Positions 17,542 to 23,805 of a stretch of 64,000 nucleotides of DNA are shown piece by piece. The notes under the pieces were generated by a model. The model was not told where the DNA came from, ran no database searches, and was given only the letters and a program-made list of their open reading frames with translations. Location: assembly GCA_016867315.1 (NCBI GenBank), contig VGJV01000004.1:37431-101430 (forward strand), given 5' to 3'. Origin of the DNA: Candidatus Liptonbacteria bacterium. GTDB taxonomy: Bacteria > Patescibacteriota > Minisyncoccia > UBA6257 > 2-01-FULL-56-20. Positions within the stretch are counted from its first letter, which is position 1, and each line of letters opens with the position of its first letter. The translations under genes were made by a program, and so were the position numbers.

Positions 17542-18525
17542 ATGGCTGACTATACGGGCATGAGTACGACGAGACCGCGAACTACGGCGGGGGATTTTTT
17601 CTTGCATTTGGGAGTGGTAGCCACGCTCTATTTTGCCGCAGGGAATCTCATTTCTTTACTATTCGACATTATAAATATTGCTTTCCCAGATAGGCTTTCT
17701 CGAGTCACGGATTTCTATTCTTCAGGCATCCGCTTTGCACTCGCGTCGCTCATCATCATTTTCCCGTTATATTTATACTTGAACCGCTATCTTGCGCGCG
17801 ACATGGATCGCTCGCCGGAGAAGCGTGATTTAGGGATCCGCAAATGGCTCTTCTACTTCACTCTTTTTCTTGCGGGCGCGATCGTAGCGGGGGATTTAGT
17901 GGCGGTGTTGAACACCTTTTTGCGCGGAGAGATCACGGTGCGATTTATATTGAAAGCCCTTACCGTACTTCTCGTGGCGGGCAGCGTATTTTGGTATTAC
18001 CTTAAAGAACTGCGTTCTGCGACGCCCGGCTCACTTACGCGAGTATGGAATATTGGCTCAGGAGTTGTAGTGCTTGCCGCAGTGATTGGCGGGTTCATGG
18101 TGAGCGGCTCTCCCATGCGGGCGCGCGACTTGCGTTTCGATGAACAGCGGGTAGGCGATCTTCAAAATATCCAGTGGCAGGTGGTGAACTACTGGCAGAC
18201 CAAAGGTAAATTACCCGCATCGCTTGCCGAACTCAAAGACCCGATCGGAGGCTATGAAGCGCCTCGCGATCCCTTAACCGATGCGGCCTACGAGTATTCC
18301 GTAAAAGGTGAGCGAGTTTTCTCTTTGTGCGCCACCTTCGCGCTACCCACCCGCACGGATGCGTTCGGAAAATCGATTTCTGAAAGCTACTATGGTCCCT
18401 CGACGGGAGATAATTGGCAGCACGAGGAGGGAAGAACTTGTTTCGACCGCACAATCGATCCTGAGCGTTATCCGCCTCGCACCTCTGAACCTGTTCCCGT
18501 GAAGCCAATCCCGGCACCGAGATAG
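17542..18525 (+). CDS. hypothetical polytopic membrane protein with C-terminal soluble domain
   Basis: 327 aa; about 6 TM helices in N-terminal 190 aa; no family recognised. Confidence 0.4.
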   Translation: MADYTGMSTTRPRTTAGDFFLHLGVVATLYFAAGNLISLLFDIINIAFPDRLSRVTDFYSSGIRFALASLIIIFPLYLYLNRYLARDMDRSPEKRDLGIRKWLFYFTLFLAGAIVAGDLVAVLNTFLRGEITVRFILKALTVLLVAGSVFWYYLKELRSATPGSLTRVWNIGSGVVVLAAVIGGFMVSGSPMRARDLRFDEQRVGDLQNIQWQVVNYWQTKGKLPASLAELKDPIGGYEAPRDPLTDAAYEYSVKGERVFSLCATFALPTRTDAFGKSISESYYGPSTGDNWQHEEGRTCFDRTIDPERYPPRTSEPVPVKPIPAPR

Positions 18526-18694
18526 CGCAACTCTTGCCTTTTTCATTAAATAATGGTATAGATTACCCACTGCTCTTTGAGAGTTTATATCGCGTGAAAT
18601 ACAAGTAGCGGCGAGCTCCCAAAGGCACTAGCGTCAAGTCCTCATTTTTGAATGGTGGACGGGACGCACATCGAAAGAAAGGAGAATTGTCCTT

Positions 18695-19408
18695 ATGATA
18701 TTCTCATTGATAGAAACTGCAAAATCCGAGCGACGACAGCCAACTGGTAATGAAAAAGAGCAATTCCGGAGGCAGCTTCGGGATATGGAAGACCGGTATA
18801 TGGCGGGCGGCATGGTTCCTGGAAAGGGACTTACCGCCACTCTTCAAAAAATTTCAGAAGGGTGGGTACTCAACGAAGCGGGAATCGCGGTGCCAGAGCG
18901 ACAGCCAACCGAGCTTTTCCTGGATAAACCTATTCAGCACGCCCATCTCCAATTTATTTCGGAGTTTGAAGCGGAAATCCCTGTGGATGCCACACTCGAC
19001 AGCACTCCACGCACTGCATATTGCCCAGGCGGGTGGAATTCGAATATCACCGACTCGAATTTCCGCACCTCGCTTGTGCCGGGGAAGAAGTATATGGCCG
19101 AAGTCTATTGGCTGCGCCGGAACAAGAGTTCCGAATCCCTCGTAAAAATCGCTGATGAGCAAAAGCGAATCTTGCCGGGAGCTTTAGGCGGTGCAATCCT
19201 TACGAGCCGTTATGGAGACAAACTCCCGAAAGATTTCTGGGTAGTGTGTCTCGACAAGCCGGAAAACCTTTGGCGCGGTGCGGGCGTCTTGCTTGTCCCG
19301 TTCTTCCGCTGGGATGGCATCGGTTGGAACTTCTTCCTGAGCTTCTGGCTCGGCGTCTGGGATCAGGGCTTCTACATCGTGCTTTTCCGCGAGGTTTCAA
19401 ATCCTTAG
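18695..19408 (+). CDS. DGR target protein (variable region occupies the last about 40 codons)
   Basis: 237 aa ORF with AAGGAG RBS; its 3' end (19268-19390) is a near-repeat of a downstream template differing only at template adenines; W/G-rich C-terminal tail ending ...QGFYIVLFR. Confidence 0.8.
   Translation: MIFSLIETAKSERRQPTGNEKEQFRRQLRDMEDRYMAGGMVPGKGLTATLQKISEGWVLNEAGIAVPERQPTELFLDKPIQHAHLQFISEFEAEIPVDATLDSTPRTAYCPGGWNSNITDSNFRTSLVPGKKYMAEVYWLRRNKSSESLVKIADEQKRILPGALGGAILTSRYGDKLPKDFWVVCLDKPENLWRGAGVLLVPFFRWDGIGWNFFLSFWLGVWDQGFYIVLFREVSNP
19268..19390 (+). repeat. DGR variable region (VR)
   Basis: 123 bp aligned to TR at 19759-19881; about 23-25 mismatches, every one at a position that is A in TR; identical 3' segment TACATCGTGCTTTTCCGC then divergence (IMH-like). 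Confidence 0.85.
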
Positions 19409-19758
19409 TCCTTGGGACTTTGGATCAATTGAGCTTGGACCCTTGGGCACTTTGTGCTTGAGGGTTCTCGCATTTTTGTATACTGAATCTGGATAGTAGG
19501 CGAATATGCGCGCGGTCAAGCCTGCCTGCCGGTAGGCAGGACTTCGCGCTGCCGAATTCTCGATAGGCATGTGGAGAATCGCGCCGGGCAAGCCTGCTTG
19601 CTAGTAATGAGCCTTGCGCGAGAGGCATATGCACTTCGCAAAAAACTGAAACACTCGGTGCGCTTCGCTAAGTGATTAGATAATTTCGAGATCACGAATT
19701 CGATACAATCCCGAGAGCTTTCATAGAGGGATGGTGGCGCAGATGGCGCGGCGCACAT

Positions 19759-19881
19759 ATATGGCGCGATGCGAACGACTTGCATGTCCCGAACTTCAAC
19801 TGGAATGACAACGGTTGGAACTTCAACCTGAACATCTGGAACGACGACTGGAATCAGGGCAACTACATCGTGCTTTTCCGC
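19759..19881 (+). repeat. DGR template repeat (TR)
   Basis: Non-coding copy of VR rich in AAC codons (13 AAC/AAT/GAC codons); all VR/TR differences map to TR adenines. Confidence 0.85.
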
Positions 19882-19888
19882 TGCTGTT

Positions 19889-20285
19889 TCATTTCTCCTC
19901 CTTTCCGGGGGAGTTTTGCTTTATGAGTTGGTTATGCCACCCACCAAGCATCCGCCCGACTTCGGCAAGCGGTTCCGAAAGCACAATGTATTTTTTCTCG
20001 CCGAGTACTTTTATTTCCCACGCAAGTGCAAGGAGGCATTTCGCCGTGTCGAGCACCGTAATCGCGCGCTTTACATAGGATAATTTCTCGGATTTAGAAA
20101 GAAAGCACGCAGTTACGGTGTGCTCAATTGTAGCGATAAGGAGTGCGTCAATCCGCGCGGCGAGCGTGTAGCGCGAAGTTTTTGGAATTTCAGGCAGGCA
20201 TTCGTGCCAAAGCTTGTACGCGGAGGTAAGCTTTTGAAGTACGATTGGATGCCGTGGGGGGGGGGCTTTGAGGAATAAAATTCAT
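19889..20285 (-). pseudogene. avd: accessory variability determinant (avd), frameshifted in a G10 tract (intact 131-aa ORF if tract were G9)
   Basis: Minus-strand translation ...IVLQKLTSAYKLWHECLPEIPKTSRYTLAARIDALLIATIEHTV...AKCLLALAWEIKVLGEKKYIVLSEPLAEVGRMLGGWHNQLIKQNSPGKEEK*, with AEVGRMLGGW close to the Bordetella-phage Avd AEVGRILGSW region; ATG at 20283-20285 is in the -1 frame relative to this ORF across the homopolymer at 20256-20265. Confidence 0.7.
20256..20265. repeat. G10/C10 homopolymer tract inside avd 5' end and 21 nt upstream of the RT start codon
   Basis: gccgtGGGGGGGGGGctttgaggaataaaattcatATG; candidate slipped-strand or sequencing-indel site. Confidence 0.9.
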
Positions 20286-21248
20286 ATGTTTGAGAATATT
20301 ATCGCAGTCGATAATTTACTCGCGGCGTGGAAAGAATTTCTACGCGGCAAGCGCACAAAGCGCGACGTGCAAGAGTTTTCCCTGCACTTGATGGACAACA
20401 TCCTAACCCTTCACGAGGAACTTCGCAACGGCACCTACCAGCATGGCGCATACAAGCACTTTCGGATCTCCGATCCGAAACCGCGCGATATCCATAAAGC
20501 CACGGTGCGCGACCGATTACTCCATCACGCCATATACCAAGTCCTTTACCCCCACTTCGACACAAAACTTATCTCTGATTCTTTCTCTTGCCGCAATGAG
20601 AAAGGCACGCATCGCACGATGCACCGCTTCCGCGAGTTTGCGTACAGAGTAGGTCGCAATCACACGCGAACGTGTTGGGTATTGAAATGCGATATTAGAA
20701 AGTTCTTCGCTTCTATTGATCAAGAGATACTTATACGAATTCTTCGCACTCACATTAGGAACGAACGCACGTTGAATATTCTTGGAGTAATAATCAACAG
20801 CTTTTCTTCCGGTGAGCAAGGCAAAGGCCTTCCGCTCGGGAATCTTACTTCGCAACTTCTTGTGAATATCTATATGAACGAGTTTGATCAGTTTATGAAA
20901 CACAAACTTCACGCAAAGTATTATCTCCGCTACGCGGACGATTTTGTGATTCTTTCTCCAAACAGGCAGTGTCTAGAACTCATTATGCCGGAAATTGAGG
21001 CATTTCTTTGGAATCGCCTGAAGCTAAAACTCCATCCCGAGAAAGTTTTTATCAAAACCCTTGCCTCCGGTGTGGATTTCTTAGGATGGGTGCATTTTCC
21101 CGACCATCGCGTGCTGCGGACGGCGACGAAGCGGCGGATGTTCAAGAATGTGGCGAATAATGGAAAATCGGCAACGCTCGAATCGTATCGGGGGCTTTTA
21201 AGTCATGGCAATGCAAATAAACTTTCCGAGCAGCTTTTTTTGCGCTAG
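20286..21248 (+). CDS. DGR reverse transcriptase
   Basis: MFENIIAVDNLLAAWKEFLRGKR N-terminus, RT motifs incl. LPLGNLTSQLLVNIYMNEFD (DGR-type I/LGxxxSQ motif 4) and YLRYADDFVIL (YxDD); 321 aa; GAGG RBS 11 nt upstream. Confidence 0.9.
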   Translation: MFENIIAVDNLLAAWKEFLRGKRTKRDVQEFSLHLMDNILTLHEELRNGTYQHGAYKHFRISDPKPRDIHKATVRDRLLHHAIYQVLYPHFDTKLISDSFSCRNEKGTHRTMHRFREFAYRVGRNHTRTCWVLKCDIRKFFASIDQEILIRILRTHIRNERTLNILGVIINSFSSGEQGKGLPLGNLTSQLLVNIYMNEFDQFMKHKLHAKYYLRYADDFVILSPNRQCLELIMPEIEAFLWNRLKLKLHPEKVFIKTLASGVDFLGWVHFPDHRVLRTATKRRMFKNVANNGKSATLESYRGLLSHGNANKLSEQLFLR

Positions 21249-21345
21249 AATCGGGAGTAATCGCTAATATCGCGAATTGCTGACAAATAATGCAAATAGA
21301 TTCGCATTATTAAAATCAAGATTCGCATTATTCGCGAATACTCCT

Positions 21346-23805
21346 ATGAAATACGATTTCGGAAAAATCGAAAAAAAGTGGCAAAAAAAGTGGAAGGAAG
21401 AGGGGGTGTACGAGCCCGATCTCAAAAAATCCAAGCGCCCATTTTATAACTTGATGATGTTTCCGTACCCTTCTGCGGAAGGGTTACACGTAGGGAATAT
21501 GTATGCGTTCACGGGAGCAGATATTTATGGTCGCCTGAAGCGCATGCAGGGATATGACCTCTTTGAACCTATTGGCCTGGATGGTTTTGGAATTCACTCG
21601 GAAAACTACGCTTTAAAAATCGGCGCGCATCCGATGAAGCAGGCGGAGGTGTCCGAAGCGCGCTTTTACAAGCAGCTCGAAATGGTGGGAAATGGCTACG
21701 CCTGGGAAGAAAAGCTCGAGACGTATGATCCCGAGTACTACAGATGGACGCAGTGGCTTTTTGTGCAAATGTGGAAACACGGTCTCGCATATCGTAAGAA
21801 GCAGCCGGTGAACTGGTGCCCCTCCTGCAAAACCGTGCTTGCTGACGAGCAGGTGATAGACGGCAAGTGCGAGCGGTGTAGTTCGGTAGTCGAGAAAAAG
21901 AATCTAGAGCAATGGTTTTTTAAAATCACCGACTATGCCGATCGGCTTTTGAACAATGTAGAAAAACTCGACTGGTCGGAAAAAGTGAAAATTGCCCAGC
22001 GCAACTGGATCGGTCGGAGTGAAGGGGTAAATATAAAATCGCGAGTGAAAGACTTGAACATAGAATTTGAGGTATTCGATTCAGTCCCGCAGACATTCAT
22101 GGCGCAAACGTTCACGGTGATCGCGCCTGAGCATCCCTTAATTCCGGAACTCGTAAAAGGTACTGAACGCGAGAAAGAAGTGCTTGCCGCCGTGGACTCG
22201 ATGAAAAAGAAAAAAGTGAGCGGCGCATATAAAACCGAAAAAGAATTCGACGGGGTTTTCACGGGGCGATATGTGGATAATCCTTTCGGGACCGGAGATT
22301 TGTCGATTTGGGTGGCCTCGTATGTGGTTTTGGACTATGGCACGGGAATAGTGCACTGTAGTGCACACGACGAACGCGACTTTGCATTCGCGAAAAAGTA
22401 TGAGATTCCGTTACGACCGGTAATGTTTCCGACAGATAAGGTGCTGGCGGAGAAAGTTCGTAATGTAGAAGTATCATATGTGAAAGATCCAGAAGGGGTG
22501 ATGGAACAGCCAAAAGAATTCAAGGGAAGAAAATGGGGAGAAGTTCGGAATGACATAATCGAATTAATGGAAAAAAGAGGAATCGCGAAGCGGACGGTAA
22601 ATTTTCGTCTTCGCGATTGGCTCATCTCCCGTCAGCGCTACTGGGGCGCGCCGATCCCAATGATTCATTGCGACGCATGCGCCGCAGAAGGAAAAGGAGA
22701 ACAAAAAGATATGCCGGGCTGGTACGCGGCACCTGAAAAAGATTTGCCGGTGGCACTCCCGTATGTGGAAGATTTTCGCCCGCAAGGAAAAGGGGAGTCT
22801 CCGCTTGCCTCAGTCGAATCGTTTTACAAAGCGAAATGTCCCGGTTGTAAAAAGATTGCTCGACGGGAAACGGATGTGTCAGATACGTTCCTCGAATCCG
22901 CCTGGTATTTTTTCCGCTACCCTTCGGTGAAAGATAAAAAGCACGCCTGGGACCCGGCGATCACCAAGAAATGGCTACCGGTGGATATGTATATCGGAGG
23001 CGCGGAGCATTCGGTGTTGCACCTTCTCTATTCTCGCTTTGTCACGATGGCCATTCATGATTGGGGATTGGCCGAATTCGAAGAGCCGTTTAAAAAATTC
23101 CGAGCGCATGGCCTTTTAATCAAAGAAGGCGCCAAGATGTCGAAATCGAAAGGGAATGTAGTAAACCCGGATGAATATATTCAAAAATTTGGGGCGGACA
23201 CGCTGCGCATGTATCTCATGTTCCTCGCTCCTTTTGAGCAGGGAGGAGATTTTCGCGATGCGAGCATCTTGGGCTTAGAGCGGTTCTTGAAGCGAGTATG
23301 GGATTTGTCGCAAACCATACAAGACAAAAAAGAAGCTAAGAGTTTAGAGCCGGTGGTACATCGCACGATTAAAAAAGTTACAGAAGATATCGAGAATCTC
23401 CATTACAATACCGCGATCAGCGCCCTTATGATCCTCCTCAATGAATTCGAAAGTAAGTCATCGTCATTATCATGGCCATCGTTTGCAACTTTCCTAAAGC
23501 TGCTCGCCCCTTTTGCACCGCATATGACTGAAGAAATTTGGAGAGAAATGCTGAATAATAAAAAATCCATCCATCTCGAACCCTGGCCGGAATATGATTC
23601 GAAGCTTATTGTCGAGGACACCTTTACGCTTGTAATCCAAGTAAATGGCAAGGTGCGGGATACGGTAGAAAATGTGCAAACGAATATTTCGGAAGATGAG
23701 GCCAGGGCATTAGCGCTTTCTCGGGAGAAGGTGCGGGCATTTATGACAGGAGAACCCCGAAAAATTATCTACATTCCGAAGAAAATTGTTAATATAGTAG
23801 TATGA
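21346..23805 (+). CDS. leuS: leucyl-tRNA synthetase
   Basis: MKYDFGKIEKKWQKKW start, HVGNMYAFTGADIYGRLKRMQGYDLFEPIGLDGFG, KMSKSKGNVVNP; 819 aa; ORF track start 21277 is an upstream in-frame extension. Confidence 0.9.
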   Translation: MKYDFGKIEKKWQKKWKEEGVYEPDLKKSKRPFYNLMMFPYPSAEGLHVGNMYAFTGADIYGRLKRMQGYDLFEPIGLDGFGIHSENYALKIGAHPMKQAEVSEARFYKQLEMVGNGYAWEEKLETYDPEYYRWTQWLFVQMWKHGLAYRKKQPVNWCPSCKTVLADEQVIDGKCERCSSVVEKKNLEQWFFKITDYADRLLNNVEKLDWSEKVKIAQRNWIGRSEGVNIKSRVKDLNIEFEVFDSVPQTFMAQTFTVIAPEHPLIPELVKGTEREKEVLAAVDSMKKKKVSGAYKTEKEFDGVFTGRYVDNPFGTGDLSIWVASYVVLDYGTGIVHCSAHDERDFAFAKKYEIPLRPVMFPTDKVLAEKVRNVEVSYVKDPEGVMEQPKEFKGRKWGEVRNDIIELMEKRGIAKRTVNFRLRDWLISRQRYWGAPIPMIHCDACAAEGKGEQKDMPGWYAAPEKDLPVALPYVEDFRPQGKGESPLASVESFYKAKCPGCKKIARRETDVSDTFLESAWYFFRYPSVKDKKHAWDPAITKKWLPVDMYIGGAEHSVLHLLYSRFVTMAIHDWGLAEFEEPFKKFRAHGLLIKEGAKMSKSKGNVVNPDEYIQKFGADTLRMYLMFLAPFEQGGDFRDASILGLERFLKRVWDLSQTIQDKKEAKSLEPVVHRTIKKVTEDIENLHYNTAISALMILLNEFESKSSSLSWPSFATFLKLLAPFAPHMTEEIWREMLNNKKSIHLEPWPEYDSKLIVEDTFTLVIQVNGKVRDTVENVQTNISEDEARALALSREKVRAFMTGEPRKIIYIPKKIVNIVV

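What the first reader, a model, noticed from the sequence alone, without database searches (positions are those of the whole stretch)
19889..20290. avd encoded antisense between TR and RT, start codon abutting the RT start in a CATATG palindrome, and frameshifted by a G10 tract
- The minus strand between 19889 and 20255 translates to a helical about 120-aa sequence. Its C-terminus (...SEPLAEVGRMLGGWHNQ...) closely matches the AEVGRILGSW region of Bordetella-phage Avd, so this is avd, even though the ORF track shows no ORF here.
- The only ATG (minus strand, 20285-20283) is in the -1 frame relative to this ORF. The two frames meet inside a 10-nt G/C homopolymer (20256-20265).
- With 9 instead of 10 G the ORF becomes a clean 131-aa Avd (MNFIPQSPPPRHPIVLQKL...).
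- The avd ATG (CAT on the plus strand) and the RT ATG are adjacent halves of CATATG. The two genes are therefore divergent with zero spacer, and the G tract also lies 21 nt upstream of the RT ATG.
- Either this is a homopolymer indel error, or a slipped-strand switch that could toggle Avd and perhaps RT expression. The second would be an unusual on/off control of DGR activity.
- The antisense placement of avd between TR and RT means the TR-containing RNA spacer is antisense-avd sequence, which is an atypical architecture.
Basis: partly seen in the sequence, partly recalled or inferred. Interest (0 to 1): 0.8.

Follow-up and report, generated by a model that had tools for sequence, protein, structure and literature searches.

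The report
Variable G-run switch in DGR avd
A run of ten G's breaks the reading frame of a helper gene (avd) of a bacterial targeted-mutation system; the same run sits at this spot in almost all related systems and changes length between samples of one strain, so it looks like a built-in random on/off switch and not a sequencing error.

Summary
A minus-strand avd lies between TR and RT. Its ATG (20285-20283) abuts the RT ATG (20286), and a G10 run (20256-20265) puts that ATG out of frame. With G9 the product is a 131-aa protein that passes the Pfam bAvd cutoff and models as the Bordetella Avd fold.

- **Not an error.** A second assembly of the same strain is identical over 3,261 bp except that it has G9. 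A third assembly has G10.
- **Conserved.** About 78 of 81 related avd genes from Patescibacteria genomes carry a pure C run of 5-12 nt at the same position. Only one other G/C run of 8 nt or more occurs in 417 kb.
- **Variable within strains.** In 4 of 7 strain-level contig groups, the run and the VR are almost the only sites that differ. Each of those four groups holds both in-frame and out-of-frame alleles.
- **Still a working gene.** The avd core has dN/dS of about 0.08-0.11.

Best reading: a slipped-strand contingency switch on Avd, which would gate DGR mutagenesis. The gating step is inferred, not shown.

The antisense TR-(avd)-RT layout is not atypical. It is the published B3 architecture, found in 90% of CPR DGRs. 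No paper in the searchable library describes the run.

The parts
18695..19408 (+). DGR target gene (237 aa) with the variable region at its 3' end
   Evidence: ORF. It has no Pfam hit. It contains the VR.
19271..19390 (+). Variable repeat (VR)
   Evidence: It is a 120-nt direct repeat of the TR at 81% identity. All 23 differences lie at TR adenines.
19437..19467 (+). Terminator-like hairpin after the target gene
   Evidence: 14-bp stem followed by a T-rich tail.
19762..19881 (+). Template repeat (TR)
   Evidence: The TR has 32 A's, and 23 of them are mismatched in the VR.
19893..19913 (+). Hairpin CUCCUCC/GGGGGAG directly 3' of the TR; it overlaps the last codons of avd on the other strand
   Evidence: This is the position where the Bordetella DGR RNA has its Avd-binding spacer (PMC6182149). 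A role here is inferred only.
19889..20255 (-). avd core reading frame (RHPIVLQKL...GKEEK*), open but without a start codon in the G10 state
   Evidence: Pfam bAvd. Four-helix AF2 model, pLDDT 88.9. Foldseek match to 4dwl Avd, TM 0.74/0.87. dN/dS 0.08-0.11 against the closest relatives.
20256..20265 (.). Homopolymer run: G10 on the + strand, C10 in avd sense, read as Pro codons 8-10 of avd when in frame
   Evidence: G9 in sister assembly L001 and G10 in L002. A run at the same position in about 78 of 81 related avd genes. Length differs within strains.
20266..20285 (-). avd start codon (20285-20283) and leader codons MNFIPQ(S)
   Evidence: Called as the start of a 131-aa bAvd gene in L001.
20286..21248 (+). 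DGR reverse transcriptase (320 aa)
   Evidence: RVT_1 at E=4e-24. LGNLTSQ and YADD motifs. Identical to NCBI protein FJY98_03180 of a Candidatus Liptonbacteria MAG.

Best explanation
The G/C run is a hypermutable simple-sequence repeat that sits in the dispensable, disordered N-terminal leader of avd, between its ATG and helix 1. Gain or loss of a G during replication (slipped-strand mispairing) changes the reading frame.

- In this strain G9 or G12 gives full-length Avd of 131 or 132 aa (ON).
- G10, the state of this window, gives a 31-aa peptide, and G11 gives a 57-aa peptide (OFF).
- In the Bordetella DGR, the RT-Avd complex is needed for cDNA synthesis. If that holds here, the run acts as a stochastic, heritable and reversible switch that lets only part of the population run mutagenic retrohoming.
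- The switch is a family trait of the head-to-head TR-(avd)-RT DGRs of Patescibacteria.

Shown: the run, the frames, its conservation, its length differences between assemblies of one strain, and purifying selection on the Avd core.

Inferred: slippage as the mutational mechanism, reversibility, and the effect on DGR activity.
For: 1. Same strain, two states. L001 is identical to the window over 3,261 bp except that it has G9 where the window has G10, and it encodes the intact 131-aa Avd. L002, from another sample, has G10.
2. Conservation. 71 of 74 analysable related loci, six more that were not analysed at first, and a second DGR in L018 carry a pure C run of 5-12 nt, 17-21 nt upstream of Avd residue 17. 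In 417 kb there is only one other G/C run of 8 nt or more. Proline codons alone would not stay pure CCC.
3. Length varies within strains.
   - P0036 group: G10 x3, G11 x2, G12 x1.
   - P0049 group: G8 x2, G9, G11, G12.
   - P0101 group: G9, G10 x4, G11 x2, plus an interrupted G5TG3.
   - Flanks are otherwise near-identical apart from the VR. No other homopolymer of 6 nt or more varies in homologous sequence.
   - Each polymorphic group holds both ON and OFF alleles.
4. The run lies in coding sequence.
   - Loci with no run or a short one have the upstream ATG in frame in 6 of 7 cases, against 25 of 65 for runs of 7 nt or more (p=0.02).
   - Lengths 9 and 12 are in frame in 12 of 20 cases, other lengths in 13 of 45 (p=0.02).
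5. The gene is not a pseudogene. dN/dS is 0.08-0.11 against L100 and L101.
6. AF2 places the run in a disordered leader, residues 1-13, ahead of helix 1.
7. Five contigs end at or in the run (L008, L013, L015, L057, L107), and two others have N gaps beside it, as expected for mixed lengths within a sample.
8. VR differences between samples occur in the three groups with three or more run lengths, and in none of the three groups fixed in an OFF length.
9. Avd is necessary for cDNA synthesis in the Bordetella DGR (PMC6182149).
Against: - Among species-level loci the upstream ATG is in frame in only 29 of 71. This is not significantly above the 1/3 expected by chance (p=0.11).
- Three populations are fixed in an out-of-frame length across 4-9 shown contigs each: P0113 at G9, P0116 at G11, P0042 at G9. 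The window's two nearest relatives are also out of frame.
- A gene that is mostly OFF yet strongly conserved could mean Avd is made some other way, by recoding or by starting downstream of the run.
- All length data come from consensus assemblies, not reads. Long G runs are error-prone.
- The link between run variability and VR variability rests on 7 groups and could simply reflect how diverse the sampled populations were.
- No experiment shows that Avd is required in this clade.
Confidence: 0.55

Rival explanations
1. The run is mainly a cis-acting nucleic-acid element, for example part of the RT leader or promoter, or of the DGR RNA. In this reading Avd translation starts downstream of the run, so the frame relation to the upstream ATG does not matter.
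For: - The frame relation to the upstream ATG is close to random: 41% in frame against 33% expected.
- In RT sense the run is followed by TAnnnT in more than half of the loci: T at +1 in 54 of 69, A at +2 in 42 of 69, T at +6 in 40 of 69.
- Promoter-like pairs spanning the run occur in 8 of 70 loci, against 3.1 +/- 1.6 with shuffled flanks.
- Many relatives have TTG or GTG at the conserved 'LPV' just after the run.
- A lineage without the run (P0033 group) starts avd with GTG directly at LPVIQ.
Against: - The window has no ATG, GTG or TTG in the Avd frame between the run and Val77. About 16 relatives also lack one.
- At the conserved Leu position the codon is often CTG, TTA, CTA or GTA, which are not start codons.
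- Run-less loci read through this position in frame from the upstream ATG in 3 of 3 cases.
- In-frame status depends on run length modulo 3.
- No promoter is predicted in the window.
- The linker beside the run stays 8-9 nt whatever the run length, so promoter spacing is not conserved.
- The + strand RNA fold is unremarkable, z=-0.84, and there is no Rfam match.
Confidence: 0.2
2. Recoding at the RNA level. RNA polymerase slippage, or ribosomal frameshifting on the C run, yields some in-frame Avd from any DNA length. The DNA length variation would then be a by-product.
For: - Out-of-frame lengths predominate and are fixed in three populations, yet the Avd core is under strong purifying selection.
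- CCC-C runs are known to be +1-prone sites for tRNA-Pro. Long homopolymers are known transcriptional slippage sites. Both points are established knowledge and were not tested here.
Against: - The shift needed differs between close relatives: +1 in the window and -1 in L100, although both have C10. A fixed-direction ribosomal frameshift is therefore excluded.
- Slippage is best documented for A/T runs.
- DNA-level ON alleles do exist and were called as full-length genes.
- The three populations fixed OFF show no VR change.
Confidence: 0.17
3. The G10 in this window is a homopolymer sequencing or assembly error. The true genome has G9 and an ordinary avd.
For: - The difference from L001 is a single G in a 10-nt homopolymer.
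- Homopolymers are the classic site of indel errors.
Against: - G10 is also seen in an independent sample, L002.
- Related populations differ by up to 4 nt, G8 to G12.
- About half of 71 species-level assemblies from many projects and assemblers are out of frame.
- Other homopolymers in the same loci never vary.
Confidence: 0.06

Closest known systems
CPR/Patescibacteria DGRs of architecture B3, TR-(avd)-RT (Wu et al. 2018, PMC5758913)
   Same: The order and orientation are the same: target-VR, TR, reverse-strand avd, RT. The host group is the same (Candidatus Liptonbacteria). The window is an ordinary member on these features.
   Different: The survey text describes the architecture but mentions no homopolymer run in avd and no frame variability.
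Bordetella phage BPP-1 DGR and its Avd (PDB 4dwl, 8ub7)
   Same: The fold is the same four-helix bundle (TM 0.74/0.87, rmsd 1.7 A). The protein is basic, pI 9.3. The element has adenine-specific TR/VR differences and an RT with the [ILV]GxxxSQ motif.
   Different: In BPP-1, avd lies upstream of the TR on the same strand as brt. I know of no phase-variable run in it; this is from my own knowledge and was not tested. Sequence identity is only about 17%, and phmmer or a family profile does not detect the relationship.
Poly-G/C contingency genes of Campylobacter, Neisseria and Haemophilus (translational phase variation by slipped-strand mispairing)
   Same: A G/C run of 8-12 nt lies near the 5' end of a coding sequence. 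Its length sets the frame. Both ON and OFF alleles occur within near-clonal populations.
   Different: - The host is an uncultured, non-pathogenic groundwater or lake lineage.
- The gene switched is not a surface or modification gene but a cofactor of a targeted hypermutation machine.
- Switching rate and reversibility have not been measured.
Promoter-spacer phase variation (porA, opc, fim; hifA/hifB divergent promoters)
   Same: The run lies between two divergently oriented genes, 20 nt before the RT ATG.
   Different: No -35/-10 pair flanks the run in the window. Only 8 of 70 relatives have one. No spacing constraint is seen.
Phase-variable regulators and mutators (phasevarion mod genes; repeat-mediated mutL switching)
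   Same: The logic is the same: a simple repeat switches a gene whose product changes many downstream outcomes or the mutation supply.
   Different: Here the downstream effect would be confined to one target gene's VR. This comparison is conceptual and was not tested.

Membership tests
Diversity-generating retroelement (DGR) | TR/VR repeat pair whose differences fall at TR adenines | tested here: met
   The repeats are 120 nt long and differ at 23 positions, all at TR A's.
Diversity-generating retroelement (DGR) | RT with the DGR-type [ILV]GxxxSQ motif and YxDD | tested here: met
   LGNLTSQ at residue 184 and YADD at residue 216. RVT_1 at E=4e-24.
Diversity-generating retroelement (DGR) | VR at the 3' end of a protein-coding target gene | tested here: met
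   The VR (19271-19390) lies inside ORF 18695-19408.
Diversity-generating retroelement (DGR) | Ongoing mutagenic retrohoming (VR differs between individuals) | tested here: inconclusive
   The VR is identical in the window and L001. VRs do differ between samples in three related populations.
Avd (Pfam PF22296 bAvd-like) | Profile match above the curated cutoff | tested here: met
   E=3e-13, 50.6 bits against a cutoff of 40, covering profile positions 2-106 of 107. This is for the G9 translation.
Avd (Pfam PF22296 bAvd-like) | Four-helix bundle like Bordetella Avd | tested here: met
   AF2 model with pLDDT 88.9 and helices 14-32, 35-60, 64-90, 96-124. Foldseek match to 4dwl_C, TM 0.74/0.87, rmsd 1.7 A.
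Avd (Pfam PF22296 bAvd-like) | Basic protein adjacent to a DGR RT | tested here: met
   pI 9.3. The gene abuts the RT start.
Avd (Pfam PF22296 bAvd-like) | Pentamer that binds the RT and the DGR RNA and is required for cDNA synthesis | not testable with these tools
   Known for Bordetella only (PMC6182149).
DGR architecture B3, TR-(avd)-RT | avd on the reverse strand between TR and RT | tested here: met
   Window coordinates. 75 of 80 related loci have the RT head-to-head with avd. Definition from PMC5758913.
Simple-sequence-repeat contingency locus (translational phase variation) | Homopolymer of about 7 nt or more inside the 5' coding region, where +/-1 nt changes the frame | tested here: met
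   G10 lies at avd codons 8-11. G9 and G12 give 131 and 132 aa. G10 and G11 give 31 and 57 aa.
Simple-sequence-repeat contingency locus (translational phase variation) | Repeat length differs among otherwise identical genomes | tested here: met
   Seen in 4 of 7 strain-level groups, at the level of consensus assemblies.
Simple-sequence-repeat contingency locus (translational phase variation) | The repeat is kept as a repeat across relatives (nucleotide-level conservation, not codon-level) | tested here: met
   A pure C run in about 78 of 81 related avd genes, with lengths 5-12 in all three frame classes.
Simple-sequence-repeat contingency locus (translational phase variation) | High-frequency, reversible switching within a clonal culture, with a phenotype | not testable with these tools
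   The organisms are uncultured, and no reads or expression data were available.
Promoter-spacer phase variation (porA/fim type) | The run lies between -35 and -10 hexamers at 16-19 nt spacing | tested here: not met
   No promoter-like site in 19300-20800. Only 8 of 70 relatives have one, against 3.1 in shuffled controls.

The most novel reading that the evidence does not exclude
Most head-to-head TR-(avd)-RT DGRs of Patescibacteria carry a conserved hypermutable G/C run in the avd leader. The run works as a contingency switch. It turns the accessory protein, and with it targeted hypermutation of the VR, on and off at random in a population. That would be a second layer of evolvability controlling a diversity generator.
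Probability: 0.5. Interest if true: 0.8.

Novelty: new variant of a known kind. Interest (0 to 1): 0.72.

Why it matters
How cells restrain or time DGR mutagenesis is largely unknown. CPR bacteria hold the largest known reservoir of DGRs, yet they cannot be cultured.

A conserved, sequence-readable ON/OFF mark in avd would make DGR activity states inferable directly from metagenomic reads. For example, the ON fraction could be compared with VR diversity across time series.

It would also explain why many CPR avd genes look frameshifted or are called with truncated N-termini. And it would add a new class of gene, a cofactor of a retroelement mutator, to the list of phase-variable functions, in a non-pathogen lineage.

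On the practical side, annotation pipelines should not discard these avd genes as pseudogenes, and assemblers should be expected to break contigs at this run.

Tried and rejected
- **Pattern scan of metagenome contigs.** A scan for the run flanks with a variable gap returned only the G9 contig already found, so it added nothing.
- **Sequence searches against PDB.** phmmer and a 20-sequence profile gave no Avd hit. The link to Bordetella Avd needed Pfam and a fold search.
- **Fixed-direction ribosomal frameshift.** Rejected, because the window needs +1 and its closest relative L100 needs -1.
- **Run as spacer of an RT promoter.**
  - No promoter is predicted in the window.
  - Relatives show weak enrichment, 8 of 70.
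  - The run length and its linker do not compensate each other.
  - Kept only as a minor rival.
- **Long-range RNA pairing.** I looked for pairing of the G run with the pyrimidine tract after the TR. It is not predicted, and the fold is unexceptional at z=-0.84.
- **Rfam.** No family matched in 18500-21500.
- **Literature.** Nine full-text searches combined DGR/avd/CPR terms with homopolymer, poly-G/C, phase variation, contingency and frameshift terms. None found a description of the run.
- **Papers that could not be read.** Paul et al. 2017 (Nat Microbiol) and one 2026 preprint were not held. Prior mention there cannot be excluded.
- **Gene calls in the look-up tables.** They proved unreliable for ON/OFF state, giving different calls for identical sequence. 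I recomputed the state from the DNA.
Full report
**1. The observation**

- G10 occupies 20256-20265 and CATATG occupies 20283-20288.
- The RT ORF starts at ATG 20286. The ORF list also offers a TTG at 20268.
- On the minus strand the ATG at 20285-20283 opens a frame that stops after 31 codons.
- The frame that encodes an Avd-like protein is open from 20255 down to the stop at 19889. It has no ATG, GTG or TTG before Val77, so only a 55-aa ORF is listed.
- Deleting one G gives the 131-aa protein MNFIPQSPPPRHPIVLQKL... G12 gives 132 aa. G8 and G11 are out of frame.
- The run is the only G/C homopolymer of 7 nt or more in the 64 kb window. About 0.08 runs of 10 or more would be expected by composition.

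**2. What the surrounding element is**

It is a complete DGR.
- TR 19762-19881 and VR 19271-19390, at the 3' end of the 237-aa ORF 18695-19408, differ at 23 positions. All 23 are TR adenines.
- The RT has RVT_1 (E=4e-24) and the LGNLTSQ and YADD motifs.
- The corrected minus-strand protein passes the Pfam bAvd gathering score at E=3e-13.
- It is basic, with pI 9.3.
- It models with pLDDT 88.9 as four helices preceded by a disordered 13-residue leader.
- The model superposes on Bordetella Avd (4dwl, TM 0.74/0.87, rmsd 1.7 A) and on Avd chains of the DGR RNP structures.
- Plain sequence searches against PDB find nothing.
- The RT is identical to an NCBI protein from a Candidatus Liptonbacteria MAG.

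**3. The architecture is not unusual**

Wu et al. 2018 define architecture B3 as TR-(avd)-RT. [quoted passage not shown]

Of 80 related loci fetched from one-genome-per-species contigs, all from Patescibacteria-type MAGs, 75 have the RT immediately head-to-head with avd. In many of them the two genes overlap by about 21 nt, because the avd ATG is the complement of a conserved His codon of the RT. The window and several relatives (L100, the P0036 group, the second DGR of L018) have the zero-spacer CATATG form.

**4. The run is a conserved feature, not an error**
- A look-up of the exact RT protein found two further assemblies. L001 (JGI 3300020214) is identical to the window over 3,261 bp, VR included, except that it has G9. 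Its gene call is the 131-aa bAvd abutting the RT. L002 (JGI 3300020198) has G10.
- Across species, 71 of 74 analysable loci carry a pure C run in avd sense, 17-21 nt upstream of the codon aligned to Avd residue 17. The length counts are C5:1, C6:3, C7:4, C8:15, C9:18, C10:17, C11:10, C12:3.
- Six loci I could not analyse at first, and a second DGR in L018, have the run as well. In 417 kb only one other G/C run of 8 nt or more exists.
- A proline motif under protein-level selection would not stay pure CCC, and it would not take lengths in all three frame classes.

**5. The run varies within strains**

I looked up RT proteins carried on several contigs. One group (P0033) has no run and a clean 116-aa avd. 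Another (P0097) could not be scored, because its RT call is extended upstream and no run lies in the stretch I examined. That leaves seven run-bearing groups, each with near-identical flanks.

| Group | Run lengths seen | State | VR between samples |
|---|---|---|---|
| Window strain | G9, G10 | G9 ON (131 aa); G10 OFF | identical (2 sequences) |
| P0036 | G10 x3, G11 x2, G12 x1 | G12 ON (128 aa) | differs |
| P0049 | G8 x2, G9, G11, G12 | G9 and G12 ON (127 and 128 aa) | differs |
| P0101 | G9, G10 x4, G11 x2, G5TG3 | G9 and G11 ON through two different ATGs; G5TG3 ON; G10 OFF | differs |
| P0113 | G9 in all 4 shown | OFF | invariant |
| P0116 | G11 in all 5 shown | OFF; avd appears further disrupted | invariant |
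| P0042 | G9 in all 9 shown | OFF | invariant |

- In the polymorphic groups the only other site of recurrent variation is the VR. A few scattered SNPs and one T indel also occur.
- No other homopolymer of 6 nt or more varies in homologous sequence.
- Five contigs end at or in the run, and two have N gaps beside it.
- Differences of up to 4 nt cannot be consensus errors.

**6. Is the run translated?**

Against: the upstream ATG is in frame in only 29 of 71 species-level loci. That is not significantly more than one third (p=0.11).

For:
- The three loci where the run is broken up encode T-P-P-S-P, T-L-A-P and S-P-V-A-P there. All three are in frame from the upstream ATG.
- Absent or short runs are in frame in 6 of 7 cases, against 25 of 65 for runs of 7 nt or more (p=0.02).
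- Lengths 9 and 12 are in frame in 12 of 20 cases, against 13 of 45 for other lengths (p=0.02).
- The conserved Leu after the run is often encoded by codons that cannot start translation.
- The window has no start codon after the run.
- The Avd core is under strong purifying selection (dN/dS 0.08-0.11 with near-saturated synonymous sites) against L100 and L101, even though all three consensus sequences are out of frame with their ATG. The gene is used. It is not decaying.

**7. Mechanism**

The best-supported reading is a contingency switch. The run sits in a dispensable disordered leader. The P0033 lineage lacks both the leader and the run and starts at GTG-LPVIQ. Slippage changes the run length, and only some lengths join the ATG to the four-helix core.

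In the Bordetella system, RT, Avd and DGR RNA are necessary and sufficient for cDNA synthesis (PMC6182149). OFF cells would therefore keep a frozen VR. This last step is inferred.

It fits the small comparison in section 5: VR differences appear in the three most run-variable populations and in none of the three fixed-OFF ones. With only seven groups, and with population diversity as a possible confounder, this is only suggestive.

**8. Rivals**
- **A cis-acting element with a downstream start.** Supported by the near-random frames, a TAnnnT motif after the run in RT sense and a weak promoter-like enrichment. Contradicted by the points in section 6, by the absence of any promoter in the window and by the lack of spacing compensation.
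- **RNA-level recoding.** It would explain why OFF states predominate. It cannot be a fixed-direction frameshift and cannot be tested here.
- **Simple sequencing error.** Unlikely, for the reasons in sections 4 and 5.

**9. Novelty**

DGRs, Avd, the B3 layout and poly-G phase variation are each known. A conserved, length-variable homopolymer in avd was not found in nine full-text searches or in the Wu et al. survey text. Paul et al. 2017 could not be read.

I class it as a new variant of a known kind. The window itself is one OFF-state example of a family-wide feature.

Noticed in passing
window 19893-19913 (+), overlapping avd codons ...NSPGKEEK on the minus strand: A 7-bp hairpin (CUCCUCC/GGGGGAG) followed by a T-rich stretch lies directly 3' of the TR. 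The avd C-terminal tail it overlaps (KQNSP..EK) is conserved across the family. In Bordetella the RNA just downstream of the TR binds Avd, so this stretch may be under dual constraint as protein and as antisense RNA.
   Followed up: partly
window 19513-19534 and 19585-19606, between VR and TR: Two similar GC-rich units (GCGCGGTCAAGCCTGCCTGCCGGTAGGCAGG... and GCGCCGGGCAAGCCTGCTTGCTAG...), each able to form a hairpin. Their function is unknown, and Rfam has no match.
   Followed up: no
window 19437-19467 (+): A strong terminator-like hairpin (14-bp stem, T tail) lies just after the target gene. It suggests that the target gene and the TR-RT unit are transcribed separately.
   Followed up: no
L004-L083, just downstream of the run in RT sense: In RT sense the run is followed by TAnnnT (often TAGAAT) and then AGAGGT-ATG in many relatives. 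This could be a -10 box for a near-leaderless RT mRNA, or it could simply be the antisense of avd codons N-S-T. The window itself lacks it.
   Followed up: partly
L127-L129 vs L130 vs L131 (P0042 group); L119 vs L118/L120/L121 (P0049 group): The DGR cassette is 100% identical (P0042) or identical apart from the VR and the run (P0049), but the sequence just downstream of the RT gene is unrelated between contigs. This suggests recent transfer or recombination of whole cassettes between genomes.
   Followed up: no
L114:1190-1200: One allele in the P0101 population has the run interrupted by a T (G5TG3). It is in frame and gives a 130-aa Avd. This is a candidate 'locked-ON' variant.
   Followed up: partly
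L095-L099 (P0116 group), avd region: By manual reading of the sequence, the 'PVVSKL' motif and the 'AYLLW' core of this avd lie in different frames, apparently because of a second shift at an A-rich stretch (AAAAACTAAAAG). This population also has a fixed G11 and an invariant VR, so it is possibly a decaying DGR.
   Followed up: partly
L018:3001 and L018:4633: One contig carries two avd genes, and therefore two DGRs, about 1.6 kb apart. Each has a C11 run, and the second also has a CATATG junction.
   Followed up: no
L008:18, L015:16, L057:2, L013:2, L107:1; N gaps in L054 and L076: Contigs from several projects end at or in the run, or have scaffold gaps beside it. This is a practical sign that assemblers struggle here, as expected if lengths are mixed within a sample.
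   Followed up: partly
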